64,000 nucleotides of DNA, taken from the NCBI GenBank assembly GCA_048937405.1, contig JBHLNF010000001.1, forward strand, positions 944,785 to 1,008,784, read 5' to 3'. Source of the stretch: Promethearchaeota archaeon. Its GTDB lineage: Archaea > Asgardarchaeota > Lokiarchaeia > Sigyniarchaeales > SOKP01. The position numbers were made by a program, and so were the translations under genes. Within the stretch, counting starts at the first letter, position 1. Each line of letters begins with the position of its first letter. Shown here one piece after another: positions 52,470-54,477 of the stretch. Under the pieces are notes generated by a model that worked only from the letters and a program-made list of their open reading frames with translations, was not told the DNA's origin and made no database searches.

Positions 52470-52701
52470 ATGATTATACCTATTCGCTGTTTTTCATGTG
52501 GTAAGCTCATAGCTCATGTCTATAAACCTTACCTTGAGATGATAGAAAAAGGAGAGCCTTCTGAAAAGGCTTTTAAAGAGTTAGGAATCGAGCGATTCTG
52601 TTGTAAACGCATGATCGTAAATTAGTAAGCATTTAAGCTTTCTAAGCGTATGTCATGTGGACCTAATAGATGAACTCCTTAAATTTCCGAGATTGCAATG
52701 A
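52470..52701 (+). CDS. rpo10: RNA polymerase subunit Rpo10 (RpoN), two exons: join(52470..52620,52652..52701), 66 aa
   Basis: MIIPIRCFSCGK...LGIERFCCKRMIV | SHVDLIDELLKFPRLQ*; CxxC and CC zinc ligands intact; absent from the ORF track because it is interrupted. Confidence 0.93.
52621..52651 (+). other. Putative 31-nt bulge-helix-bulge mRNA intron in rpo10
   Basis: Exon stem cgcatga/tcatgtg (7 bp), central helix tcgt/gcgt, two 3-nt bulges, intron stem ttag-t-aagc/gctt-t-ctaa; removal restores frame and the SHV motif. Confidence 0.85.
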
Positions 52702-52724
52702 ACATACACATCTAATAACAAAAT

Positions 52725-54010
52725 TTAAGAGAAATGATCTAAATATTTTCTTTTGAATTTTATAATCTTTCTATTAAAATTTAGATCCCAAATCTTATTT
52801 TCTACTCTCTTCCAATATGAATGTGGCAGTGTTTCAACACTAAATTCATCACATAATCTCTTAAAAAGATCAAAACTAACACCAAAAAACTCGGCTAATT
52901 TAGTTCTAGGTCCAAGATTAATCAACTCATCTATGATATCTTTTTTCCCTATTTTTTCACGAAGAACTTCATAAGTATATCTCCCTCCCTTCATTGGATA
53001 AAATACTCTTTTTCTTTCCATACTGAATTCAAATGATTCCATCATAAAGTTAAATAATATTGGACCGATTCTTAAATACCAATGGTCTTTTATATCACAG
53101 TTTTTTATCCAAACTTTTTCTCTCCCTGCAATTTTCTTATTTTTAACTTCATGTCTTAAATTAAATTCTTCCTTAATTTGCTCAAGAAATTGCTTATTTG
53201 AATTATGAATTATAGGCGCTCCTTCTTCACCATCCCCATCATAAAAGCCGAGTAATACTGACAAAGCCACTTTATACATTAAATTTCTAAAAAAGCCAAC
53301 TCTTAAACATTTTCCTTCTTTAAAATCTAAAAATCCCAATTTTATTAAATCCTTAATCATTGGAATACATCCAATTCTAATTCCATATCTTTCTGGATAT
53401 TCTCCTGATTTTTTTCTTATCCTCCTATCAATTTTATGTTCAATTTTATTTATAACATGTAATTCATTACGAAATCTCTCAATAACCTTGGAATCCCTCT
53501 TTTCTAAAAAAAGGCCAATATGTCCATCCTTAGAAATAAATCCATCAGCAAGTAACAATCCAAAATAATAACCTTTGTTTGTTGTATTAAGTAATTTAAA
53601 GTAATGTTTTTTTAAATTAGGATTATGAAGATGCCATTGCTGTTGTCGATACTCAAGGAGTTGATTTTTTTCAATATAATTATAAATTAATTCTTTACAT
53701 TTTTTAATATCTTTATTGCTCAACTTTTTTGATAAAGATTTGATAAAATCTATTAATTGCTCAACTTTTTTGATAAAGATTTGATAAAATCTATTAATTG
53801 ATCTTTTGAAAATTTAAAATAGGGATTATGCTTTGGACTATTTGAATTCTTTATCCTAAACCGAGTATCTCTTATATATCTAATATGCATACCCAAATAT
53901 TCAGAAAATTTGTCATATGAAAGTATTTTTCTATGTATTTTACTAGTTGATACTAATTCTGATATTTCTTTACGTAGATCTTCTATGAAATCTAATGTAG
54001 AATATTCCAT
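52725..54010 (-). pseudogene. Free-standing double-motif LAGLIDADG homing endonuclease, frameshifted by a 41-bp tandem duplication (ORFs 53753..54010 and 52725..53723)
   Basis: Motifs YYFGLLLADG and VLLGFYDGDG; removing one repeat copy fuses ...SKKLSN-KDIKKC... into one 414-aa ORF. Confidence 0.82.
53715..53800. repeat. Exact 41-bp tandem duplication
   Basis: attgctcaacttttttgataaagatttgataaaatctatta at 53715 and 53756, followed by attg. Confidence 0.95.
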
Positions 54011-54265
54011 AATTGTCTATGAAAATTGAACTGATATAGGATTTTTAGTTAGAAAATTAGTTATTCCAATATTTATGATAAATGAGAGTGATTGATTATT
54101 AATTTCATCTCTAAAGTGAGACAAAGAATCTTAGATATAATATAGATTTAAAATAGGTTTGAAAAATTAGATAAAAATTCTATAGATTTATTCGATGAAT
54201 TACTTAAATTTCCTCGATTACAATAATATAATTATTTATAAATTAATAGAAGTAATAAGCAAGAG

Positions 54266-54448
54266 TTATTGTTTCCCGTAATGGGCAGTCCATCTCGTTT
54301 TTCTTGCTTTTTTATTATAATCTAACATTGATTTACGGCATTTGTTAGTACAAAAGTTCAAGACTGTACCATCTCTCTTTACAAACATGAGACCTCGGCC
54401 TATAGGAATATCATAACCACAAAAACTACATTTTTTTACCTTTACCAT
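54266..54448 (-). CDS. rpl24e: 50S ribosomal protein L24e
   Basis: CSFCG.DI..GRG.MFVKRDG...FCTNKC...RWT. Confidence 0.95.
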   Translation of the reverse strand: MVKVKKCSFCGYDIPIGRGLMFVKRDGTVLNFCTNKCRKSMLDYNKKARKTRWTAHYGKQ

Positions 54449-54477
54449 TAGTAACACATATAAAAATTGTTTAAACT

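What the first reader, a model, noticed from the sequence alone, without database searches (positions are those of the whole stretch)
52470..52701. Bulge-helix-bulge mRNA intron in the RNA polymerase subunit gene rpo10 of an Asgard archaeon
Seen: rpo10 reads ...CCKRMIV then AAT TAG TAA; the conserved tail HVDLIDELL resumes 31 nt later in another frame. The junction folds as helix-bulge-helix-bulge-helix: exon stem CGCAUGA(52608-14)/UCAUGUG(52653-59); 4-nt central helix UCGU(52615-18)/GCGU(52646-49) with one U.U; 3-nt bulges AA|A (52619-21) and AU|G (52650-52); intron stem UUAG-U-AAGC/GCUU-U-CUAA with a 6-nt loop. Known: archaeal EndA cuts after the second nucleotide of each bulge and RtcB ligates. 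Those cuts remove exactly 52621-52651 and give GTA A|GT CAT = V-S-H, the family-typical (S/T)HV, and a 66-aa protein. Structure and protein conservation point independently to the same splice sites, and both exons are undecayed. The mRNA BHB intron precedent I know is crenarchaeal cbf5; I know of none in rpo10 or in Asgard mRNAs, but cannot search. Inference: RNA polymerase assembly depends on tRNA-type splicing, a possible regulatory link and relevant to intron origins near the eukaryotic ancestor.
Basis: partly seen in the sequence, partly recalled or inferred. Interest (0 to 1): 0.95.

Follow-up and report, generated by a model that had tools for sequence, protein, structure and literature searches.

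The report
tRNA-type mini-intron in Asgard rpo10
The only gene for the small RNA polymerase subunit Rpo10 in this Loki-type Asgard archaeon is split by a 31-base insert shaped like an archaeal tRNA intron; ten related species show it is conserved, almost certainly cut out of the mRNA, and has moved between species as DNA next to a homing-endonuclease gene.

Summary
The single rpo10 gene stops after 51 codons, and the conserved tail HVDLIDELLKFPRLQ resumes 31 nt later in another frame. The junction has bulge-helix-bulge (BHB) geometry.

Ten of 48 congeneric genomes with an rpo10 match carry the insert at the same site. It is 31 nt in nine and 30 nt in one. Five base pairs show compensatory changes. 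Exon codons that form the outer helix are fixed, and exon 2 has only silent changes. Canonical cuts give Ser or Gly at the junction, the residues seen in intact congeners. Independent metagenome contigs contain the insert. The genome encodes two EndA paralogs and RtcB. No RNA data exist, so splicing is inferred.

- Intron-bearing alleles are scattered on a marker tree.
- At least seven of the ten keep a displaced "orphan" copy of the native 3' end.
- A LAGLIDADG-fold endonuclease gene lies beside rpo10 in five of them; it is broken in this genome.

This points to DNA-level spread rather than a regulatory device.

Earlier notes of this scan report the same intron in congeners, other rpoN introns in other Asgard genomes, and many ~30-nt mRNA introns in this genome. 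I rechecked several of these. I found no paper describing Asgard mRNA BHB introns.

The parts
52470..52620 (+). rpo10 (rpoN) exon 1: codons 1-50 plus the first base of codon 51
   Evidence: Pfam RNA_pol_N positions 1-49 of 58, E 4e-22. It is the only copy in the genome.
52621..52651 (+). 31-nt BHB intron. Contains in-frame TAG TAA, a 9-position inner stem and a 6-nt loop.
   Evidence: Sequence. Ten orthologous copies with 5 covarying pairs. Present in independent metagenome contigs.
52652..52701 (+). rpo10 exon 2: last two bases of codon 51, codons 52-66 (HVDLIDELLKFPRLQ), stop TGA
   Evidence: Identical peptide in all 10 intron-bearing genomes. 13 of 15 codons vary synonymously and none non-synonymously.
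52608..52614 (+). 5' strand of the exon-exon (outer) helix CGCAUGA; pairs with 52653-52659
   Evidence: 7 bp, 96% of cells paired. Arg47 is CGC in 10 of 10 intron alleles against 3 of 52 intact genes.
52615..52618 (+). 5' strand of the central 4-position helix UCGU; pairs with 52646-52649 (GCGU)
   Evidence: Pair 52616-52648 is C-G x6, U-A x2, U-G x2. The U.U position becomes U-G in G055.
52619..52621 (+). 5' bulge AA|A; predicted cut after 52620
   Evidence: Geometry. AGA in G016 gives Gly, a residue also found in intact congeners.
52646..52649 (+). 3' strand of the central helix GCGU (intron side)
52650..52652 (+). 3' bulge AU|G; predicted cut after 52651
   Evidence: AAG or AGG in the nine other genomes. 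The cut restores the frame.
52653..52659 (+). 3' strand of the exon-exon helix UCAUGUG
   Evidence: Positions 52653-52658 are invariant in 10 genomes although they include synonymous sites.
52725..53723 (-). LAGLIDADG-fold homing-endonuclease domain ORF (332 aa), converging on rpo10 23 nt after its stop
   Evidence: No Pfam or PDB sequence hit. The AlphaFold model (pLDDT 72) matches only LAGLIDADG enzymes: bI3 maturase, I-SceI, PI-SceI, I-DmoI. Homologs lie next to rpo10 in G001, G008, G024, G052, G012 and L059.
53753..54010 (-). 85-aa ORF: the detached N-terminal part of the endonuclease gene
   Evidence: Fused with the nuclease domain in relatives (409-488 aa ORFs). Removing one repeat copy gives a 414-aa ORF.
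53706..53787 (.). 41-nt tandem duplication that breaks the endonuclease gene
   Evidence: the repeat finder family D1. Reading test.
54185..54226 (+). Orphan copy of the native rpo10 3' end (DLFDELLKFPRLQ*). It lies 1525 nt downstream of the live copy and about 40-45 nt from the end of rpl24e (the 45-nt figure is measured from the last sense codon), the same spacing as the live tail of intronless relatives.
   Evidence: Direct repeat D2, 81% identity. Same spacing in intronless G044. Orphan tails also occur in G008, G016, G018, G024, G047 and G052.
54266..54457 (-). rpl24e, the normal convergent neighbour of rpo10
   Evidence: tblastn maps.

Best explanation
The 31 nt at 52621-52651 are an archaeal bulge-helix-bulge intron inside the coding sequence of the only rpo10 gene.

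How it most likely works:
- In the pre-mRNA the two exon ends pair (CGCAUGA/UCAUGUG).
- A 4-position helix forms between the last exon-1 bases and the 3' end of the intron. It is flanked by two 3-nt bulges, and the rest of the intron forms a hairpin.
- The heteromeric splicing endonuclease (two EndA paralogs, one lacking the catalytic His) cuts after the second base of each bulge.
- RtcB joins the exons to GUA-AGU-CAU. Translation then yields the full 66-aa Rpo10. Unspliced mRNA gives a 51-aa product lacking the conserved C-terminal helix.

At the DNA level the intron did not arise in place in this lineage. It arrived with a replacement copy of exon 2 and a LAGLIDADG homing-endonuclease gene, displacing the native 3' end, which survives as an orphan upstream of rpl24e. 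The endonuclease gene is now broken here, so the intron is a stranded passenger that the cell must splice.

What is shown: the structure, its conservation and covariation, selection on both exons, presence of the enzyme genes, the orphan tails, the endonuclease fold, and the patchy distribution. What is inferred: cleavage and ligation in vivo, and the endonuclease's target.
For: Uniqueness
- Single rpo10 in a genome scored 100% complete.

Conservation
- 10 of 48 congeners with an rpo10 match are interrupted at the same profile position.
- The sequences align with one indel, in the loop.

Structure
- 89.5% of cells are paired.
- 5 pairs change on both sides: 52616-48, 52625-42, 52626-41, 52628-39 and 52630-37.
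- The covariation score is 0.177 against 0.116 for shuffles (0 of 500 reach it). Slid controls pair in at most 51% of cells.

Exon constraint
- Arg47 is CGC in 10/10 against 3/52 intact genes.
- Val50 is GTA in 10/10 against 5/52.
- Codon 51 is AGT or GGT in 10/10, against AGT in 6/52.
- His52 is CAT in 10/10 against 35/52.

Exon 2 is translated
- The peptide is identical in 10 species, with synonymous variation in 13 of 15 codons.

Junction
- Canonical cuts give Ser in 9 genomes and Gly in G016. Intact congeners have S or G there.
- Cutting one base earlier would give Cys in this genome, which is never seen.
- Loose ends of intronless relatives in metagenomes diverge at 52620|52621, reading ...GTAA|GCCACGTT.

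Real DNA
- Contigs from two further studies carry the insert.

Machinery
- EndA paralogs of 197 and 200 aa and an RtcB are present.
- Asgard EndA is the broad-specificity (alpha-beta)2 type (PMC5829648).

Context
- ARAGORN finds only 7 uninterrupted tRNA genes, in line with heavily BHB-interrupted Asgard tRNA genes (bioRxiv 10.64898/2026.10.13.758758).
- pfk and rnhB in this genome are also split inside conserved motifs.
- rpo10 of two other Asgard families has a different 31-nt BHB insert in Cys codon 7.

DNA mobility
- Intron alleles need 7 changes on an RtcB tree, forced by branches with SH-aLRT 95 or more.
- Orphan tails occur in 7 of 10 intron genomes plus a remnant in G001, against 1 of 52 distinct intact genes.
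- G008 and G052 share a ~105-nt patch centred on the intron at 98% identity, against 73-78% in exon 1 and 77% in RtcB.
Against: - No RNA evidence: no RNA run was listed, so neither the spliced junction nor a circular intron has been seen.
- The central helix has a U.U mismatch in 9 of 10 genomes, so the motif is not a perfect 3-4-3 BHB.
- The single-sequence minimum-energy fold of this genome prefers another centre.
- The ten sequences are related, so covariation counts are not fully independent events.
- The endonuclease link is incomplete. The gene lies next to rpo10 in only 5 of 10 intron genomes, and it also lies next to intronless rpo10 in G012 and L059.
- The marker tree rests on one gene.
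Confidence: 0.86

Rival explanations
1. Translational bypassing (ribosome hopping, as in phage T4 gene 60). The ribosome would take off at GUA (52617-19), skip 31 nt containing stops and a hairpin, and land at GUA (52648-50). No RNA splicing would be needed.
For: In this genome a matching GUA lies exactly 31 nt downstream. A stop codon and a hairpin follow the take-off site.
Against: - The landing triplet is AUA in G016 and CAG in G055, while the base change there keeps an RNA pair with exon 1.
- In this genome the hop would give Val-Cys-His, a residue never seen at position 51.
- Covariation in the inner stem and the fixed exon helix fit a BHB, not a hop.
- As far as I know, bypassing is not known in archaea.
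Confidence: 0.03
2. No rejoining at all. The cell uses a truncated 51-aa Rpo10, and the downstream tail is a relic or is made separately from the GUG at 52657.
For: Exon 1 alone carries all four zinc ligands and most of the Pfam domain.
Against: - Exon 2 keeps an identical 15-residue peptide in 10 species with abundant silent variation.
- The truly unused orphan tails show residue changes and truncation.
- Val53 is GUA, not a start codon, in 3 of 10 genomes.
- The intron hairpin and exon helix covary, which a relic would not do.
Confidence: 0.03
3. The insert is removed from RNA, but not by EndA/RtcB. Another nuclease-ligase pair would act, or the fold serves another role such as regulated cleavage.
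For: The centre has a U.U mismatch. No enzymology exists for this genus.
Against: - The bulge sizes, the 4-position spacing, the cut positions needed to restore the codon, and the intron size match the EndA rule.
- They also match other interrupted genes (a tRNA-Gly gene, pfk) in the same genome.
- EndA and RtcB genes are present.
Confidence: 0.06
4. Assembly or sequencing artefact, or a dead gene in a contaminated bin.
For: The genome is a 29-contig assembly with 5.7% estimated contamination.
Against: - The same insert occurs in 10 species-level genomes.
- It also occurs in contigs from independent studies.
- No other rpo10 is present.
- The flanking ribosomal-protein genes are syntenic with relatives.
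Confidence: 0.01

Closest known systems
BHB intron in the cbf5 (pseudouridine synthase) pre-mRNA of Crenarchaeota (Watanabe 2002; Yokobori 2009, PMC2738675)
   Same: A short BHB intron inside a protein-coding sequence. It is thought to be cut by a hetero-oligomeric EndA and religated, and it has been gained and lost among related species.
   Different: A different phylum (Asgard, Promethearchaeota) and a different gene (an RNA polymerase subunit). Here there is no RNA evidence yet. The intron is linked to a duplicated 3' exon and a neighbouring homing-endonuclease gene. It appears to be one of many such introns in the genome.
BHB intron in the 5' UTR of HVO_1309 mRNA, Haloferax volcanii (PMC7714728)
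   Same: An mRNA substrate of the splicing endonuclease outside tRNA and rRNA.
   Different: That one lies in an untranslated leader and does not interrupt a reading frame. It was verified in vivo and in vitro.
BHB introns of Asgard tRNA genes (bioRxiv 10.64898/2026.10.13.758758) and archaeal tRNA introns generally
   Same: Same motif, a similar size (a 31-nt intron in a tRNA-Gly gene of this genome) and the same presumed enzymes. Gains are repeated, with no known route of arrival.
   Different: The host is an mRNA, so the splice must be exact to the nucleotide to keep the frame. Here a DNA-level route of arrival is visible.
LAGLIDADG-encoding BHB introns of crenarchaeal rRNA genes (I-DmoI, I-PorI, I-Tsp061I)
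   Same: A BHB intron associated with a LAGLIDADG homing endonuclease. The model of the neighbouring ORF matches I-DmoI and I-Tsp061I.
   Different: There the endonuclease ORF sits inside a long intron. Here the intron is 31 nt and the endonuclease gene is free-standing, downstream and convergent.
Collaborative homing of an intron and a free-standing endonuclease in phages (F-CphI with the psbA intron, PMC6083498; mobE with I-TevIII, PMC2790892)
   Same: An ORF-less intron next to a separate endonuclease gene. The intron would interrupt the target site and protect its own allele. Distribution is patchy, with short co-conversion tracts.
   Different: Those are self-splicing group I introns in phage genomes. 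Here it is a protein-spliced BHB intron in a cellular core gene, the endonuclease's target is untested, and a duplicated exon is left behind.

Membership tests
Archaeal BHB (EndA-type) intron | Two 3-nt bulges on opposite strands separated by a 4-bp helix | tested here: met
   Bulges at 52619-21 and 52650-52. The centre is 52615-18/52646-49 with three standard pairs plus U.U, which becomes U-G in G055. Geometry is conserved in 10 genomes. The motif is relaxed rather than perfect.
Archaeal BHB (EndA-type) intron | Flanking helices on both sides (h and h') | tested here: met
   7-bp exon helix and 9-position inner stem; 96% and 90% of cells paired; 4 covarying pairs in the inner stem.
Archaeal BHB (EndA-type) intron | Cuts after the second bulge nucleotide give a functional product | tested here: met
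   The cuts restore a 66-aa Rpo10 with Ser (9 genomes) or Gly (G016) at residue 51, as in intact congeners.
Archaeal BHB (EndA-type) intron | Splicing endonuclease and RtcB ligase encoded by the organism | tested here: met
   Two PF01974 ORFs (103 and 71 bits) and one PF01139 ORF (565 bits).
Archaeal BHB (EndA-type) intron | Spliced RNA and excised (circular) intron observed; cleavage by EndA in vitro | not testable with these tools
   No RNA run is listed for this DNA.
Mobile intron with homing endonuclease (collaborative homing) | A homing-endonuclease gene physically linked to the intron | tested here: inconclusive
   A LAGLIDADG-fold ORF lies next to rpo10 in 5 of 10 intron genomes. It is broken in G000 and G001 and absent from the fetched flanks in five. 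It also lies next to intronless rpo10 in G012 and L059.
Mobile intron with homing endonuclease (collaborative homing) | Patchy distribution among close relatives and exchange of a tract centred on the insertion site | tested here: met
   7 changes on the RtcB tree. The G008/G052 patch is 98% identical against 73-78% in the flanks.
Mobile intron with homing endonuclease (collaborative homing) | The endonuclease cuts the intronless allele at or near the insertion site and not the intron-bearing allele | not testable with these tools
   Needs an in vitro cleavage assay.
RNA polymerase subunit N / Rpo10 / Rpb10 (PF01194) | Match to the family profile over its full length, including the C-terminal helix | tested here: met
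   Exon 1 covers positions 1-49. Intact congeners with the same exon 2 peptide cover 1-58.

The most novel reading that the evidence does not exclude
The rpo10 mini-intron may be half of a composite mobile element. A free-standing LAGLIDADG endonuclease would cut intronless rpo10 at the codon 50/51 site. Repair would copy in the 31-nt BHB intron together with a replacement exon 2. The intron would split the endonuclease's recognition sequence at the DNA level, while host tRNA-splicing enzymes erase it at the RNA level. This would be collaborative homing built on a protein-spliced intron, and a concrete DNA route by which BHB introns enter Asgard protein-coding genes.
Probability: 0.35. Interest if true: 0.93.

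Novelty: new variant of a known kind. Interest (0 to 1): 0.85.

Why it matters
In the papers I could search, splicing of a coding sequence by the tRNA-intron machinery is established in archaea for one gene only (cbf5, Crenarchaeota), plus one 5' UTR case in Haloferax.

Here an essential core gene of the transcription machinery depends on it. The organism belongs to the archaeal group closest to eukaryotes, and its genome seems to hold many such mini-introns. That makes interrupted protein-coding genes a normal feature of at least one Asgard lineage. It also means gene callers truncate or miss such genes: rpo10 is read as 51 aa.

The locus offers rare evidence on how such introns arrive. It shows a displaced native exon, a homing-endonuclease neighbour, and a near-identical patch shared by distant congeners. 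A recent tRNA-intron study left the route of intron arrival explicitly open.

All of this can be tested with simple RT-PCR and in vitro cleavage assays.

Tried and rejected
- RNA evidence: the look-up of sequencing runs listed no RNA holder. Only DNA contigs could be laid.
- Genome-wide census: my scan for strict BHB motifs (61,045 candidates) was filtered for ORF joining. It gave no excess over cuts shifted by 1-2 nt (about 2,200 each). The criteria are too noisy, and too strict on the outer helix: they missed the pfk and rnhB inserts. The result says nothing either way.
- Sequence paralogs of the intron in this genome: none within 6 mismatches.
- Pfam and PDB sequence searches gave nothing significant for the neighbouring ORF. 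Only the fold search identified it.
- The rpo10 CDS tree (171 columns) is too poorly resolved to place intron alleles, so I used RtcB instead. That tree used 41 rows: G016 and G059 dropped out of the tblastn filter, and G061 and G068 were not fetched.
- A G000 versus G044 sliding comparison for a left recombination boundary was only weakly suggestive.
- Programmed frameshifting is rejected. The G047 insert is 30 nt and carries in-frame TAG TAA.
- I tried to parse the BHB registers of ARAGORN-called tRNA introns but did not resolve them.

Full report
**1. What is in the sequence**

Window 52470-52625 is an ORF of 51 codons ending ...CCKRMIVN*. It matches Pfam RNA_pol_N over profile positions 1-49 of 58 (E 4e-22). 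The missing end of the domain, HVDLIDELLKFPRLQ*, is encoded from 52654 to 52701 in another frame.

Deleting 52621-52651 (31 nt) joins GTA A to GT CAT. This yields a 66-aa protein identical in length and almost in sequence to the intact Rpo10 of congeners.

- a 7-bp exon-exon helix;
- a 4-position centre with three standard pairs and one U.U;
- two 3-nt bulges;
- a 9-position inner stem with one U.U and a 6-nt loop.

The 69-nt stretch folds at -18.4 kcal/mol (z = -3.6). The single-sequence optimum pairs the centre as CGUA/UAUG, not in the BHB register.

**2. Is it real DNA, and the only copy?**

The genome (4.47 Mb, 29 contigs, scored 100% complete) has one rpo10. Contigs from an independent study cover 52521-52900 without a difference. 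A third study's contig covers 52476-52900 with scattered substitutions and no gap.

In the same runs, contigs of intronless relatives stop matching at 52615 or 52620. They continue ...GTAA|GCCACGTTGAT, that is V-S-H-V-D. This marks the insertion point independently.

Record titles of the closest loci name the group Promethearchaeota or Promethearchaeia, the Loki-type Asgard archaea.

**3. Comparative test of the structure**

Of 54 genomes of the genus, 48 have an rpo10 match. Ten of these are cut at profile position 49/50, and the other 38 are intact. None of 17 genomes from other genera of the order is interrupted. Neither are the rest of a 251-genome sample of the phylum at this site, nor the top 80 loci of a search of species representatives apart from three loci that belong to G001, G018 and G024.

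Nine inserts are 31 nt. The G047 insert is 30 nt (one loop base fewer), so exon 2 lies in the same genomic frame but behind in-frame TAG TAA. That excludes frameshifting as the general mechanism.

- 89.5% of cells are paired, against 31-51% when partners are slid.
- Five pairs change on both sides.
- The covariation score exceeds all 500 shuffles.

Key pairs:
- 52616-52648: C-G x6, U-G x2, U-A x2
- 52625-52642: G-C x7, A-U x1
- 52628-52639: A-U x8, G-C x2
- 52630-52637: C-G x7, U-G x1, U-A x2

The U.U in the centre becomes U-G in G055. The alternative centre of the minimum-energy fold is not conserved, because the 3' bulge is AAG or AGG in the other nine.

**4. Selection on the exons**

Codons that build the exon helix are frozen in the ten intron alleles:

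| Codon | Intron alleles (10) | Intact congeneric genes (52 distinct) |
|---|---|---|
| Arg47 | CGC 10/10 | CGC 3/52 (AGA 37/52) |
| Val50 | GTA 10/10 | GTA 5/52 |
| 51 | AGT or GGT 10/10 | AGT 6/52 |
| His52 | CAT 10/10 | CAT 35/52 |

Other synonymous sites in the same ten genes vary freely. Exon 2 encodes the same 15 residues in all ten, with silent variation in 13 of 15 codons and three different stop codons. It is therefore translated in that frame.

Canonical cuts give Ser in nine genomes and Gly in G016 (bulge AGA). Intact congeners have S or G at that residue. A cut one base earlier would give Cys here.

**5. Machinery and context**

The genome encodes two EndA-family proteins. One (197 aa) has the Tyr/His/Lys positions. 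The other (200 aa) has the His replaced, as judged by eye from the translations. It also encodes RtcB. A published survey assigns Asgard archaea the (alpha-beta)2 EndA with the L1 insert, which accepts relaxed motifs (PMC5829648).

ARAGORN finds only 7 uninterrupted tRNA genes. This agrees with a 2026 preprint on heavily BHB-interrupted Asgard tRNA genes (10.64898/2026.10.13.758758).

Earlier notes of this scan report many ~30-nt mRNA inserts in this genome. I rechecked two by reading the DNA:
- pfk: MTIKRVGILTGGG | 31 nt | DCPGLN
- rnhB: GIDEAGR | insert | GSVLGPMV

In two other Asgard families, rpo10 carries a different 31-nt BHB insert inside the first zinc-ligand Cys codon (G076 and G097).

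**6. How it got there**

On an RtcB tree the intron-bearing genomes are scattered. Seven changes are forced by branches with SH-aLRT of 95 or more. The nearest relatives of G000, G001, G055 and G047 are intronless.

The normal locus is rps28e-rpl7ae (minus strand), then rpo10 (plus strand), then about 45 nt to the convergent rpl24e.

In this genome the live exon 2 is followed by three things:
- a 332-aa ORF and an 85-aa ORF on the minus strand;
- then a second, slightly decayed copy of the rpo10 tail (54185-54226, DLFDELLKFPRLQ*);
- this copy lies where the native tail should be relative to rpl24e.

Orphan tails also occur in G008, G016, G018, G024, G047 and G052, with a remnant in G001. In G047 the orphan includes the last bases of an intron. 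Only 1 of 52 distinct intact genes has two tails. Intronless sister genomes have a single tail. They are therefore more simply explained as never invaded than as precise losers.

The 332-aa ORF has no sequence-level family hit. Its model (pLDDT 72) matches only LAGLIDADG enzymes, including the archaeal intron-encoded I-DmoI and I-Tsp061I. In relatives it is fused with the 85-aa part. Here a 41-nt tandem duplication splits it, and removing one copy gives a 414-aa ORF. G001 has a frameshift.

Homologs flank rpo10 in G001, G008, G024 and G052. They also flank the intronless rpo10 of G012 and L059.

G008 and G052 lie in different major clades (RtcB DNA 77% identical, exon 1 73-78%, endonuclease about 80%). 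Yet they share a ~105-nt patch at 98% identity, covering the last 27 nt of exon 1, the intron and exon 2. This looks like a recent conversion tract centred on the insertion site.

**7. Reading**

The best explanation is a BHB intron spliced by EndA and RtcB. It entered rpo10 as DNA together with a replacement exon 2, probably with help from the LAGLIDADG endonuclease, and has spread horizontally within the genus.

Whether the endonuclease targets the intronless site ("collaborative homing", known for group I introns in phages: PMC6083498, PMC2790892) is an attractive hypothesis but untested. I find no support for a regulatory role.

Rivals are weak:
- Ribosome hopping fails in G016 and G055.
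- A truncated protein contradicts the selection on exon 2.
- An artefact is excluded by ten genomes and independent contigs.

**8. Novelty**

Six full-text searches aimed at this question found no report of BHB introns in Asgard protein-coding genes. The known cases are cbf5 in Crenarchaeota (PMC2738675) and a 5' UTR in Haloferax (PMC7714728).

The kind is known. New here are the lineage, the gene, the mini size class shared with tRNA introns, and the exon-duplication and endonuclease context.

Other notes of this scan saw the same intron in congeners and other rpoN introns elsewhere. This locus is therefore one instance of a wider, apparently unpublished pattern. The missing piece is direct RNA evidence.

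Noticed in passing
window 53706-53787: A 41-nt tandem duplication splits the LAGLIDADG endonuclease gene into an 85-aa ORF and a 332-aa ORF. Deleting one copy in silico gives a continuous 414-aa ORF like those of relatives.
   Followed up: yes
own genome, contig C25 about 149000 (+) and about 104600 (+); loci L127, L128: pfk and rnhB are each interrupted inside a conserved N-terminal motif by a short insert: GGG|31 nt|DCPGLN and GIDEAGR|insert|GSVLGPMV. The Pfam matches start only at profile positions 11 and 8.
   Followed up: partly
L193 (G097:C10) and L194 (G076:C67): In two other Asgard families, rpo10 carries a different 31-nt insert inside the first Cys codon (MIIPVR-T|...|GC-FTCG). It has a 4-bp centre (UCCG/CGGG in G076), bulges AU|A and AA|G, and a perfect 9-bp hairpin.
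   Followed up: partly
whole genome (ARAGORN on /data/genome.fa): Only 7 uninterrupted tRNA genes are found, and 14-21 in total even when introns are allowed. Most tRNA genes are probably interrupted beyond what the program can model. A tRNA-Gly(GCC) gene has a 31-nt intron.
   Followed up: partly
L122 (G047), about 40 nt upstream of rpl24e: The orphan rpo10 tail of G047 begins with GCGTAAGTCATGTG, the 3' end of an intron plus the exon helix. An intron-bearing allele seems to have been overwritten by another one.
   Followed up: no
L072 (JAGXNQ010000009.1): An intronless rpo10 (AGT CAT GCA at codons 51-53) is followed about 300 nt later by a second tail copy. This may be a case of intron loss, or of cassette insertion without an intron.
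   Followed up: no
L037 1453-2046 (-) and L038 1210-1812 (+): Two EndA paralogs of 197 and 200 aa. The second has Asp where the first has the catalytic His, consistent with a catalytic plus structural heteromer.
   Followed up: partly
L186 358-3078 (-) (G012): In G012 the endonuclease homolog is the C-terminal part of a 907-aa ORF next to an intronless rpo10. There rpl24e lies upstream of rpo10, so the locus is rearranged.
   Followed up: no
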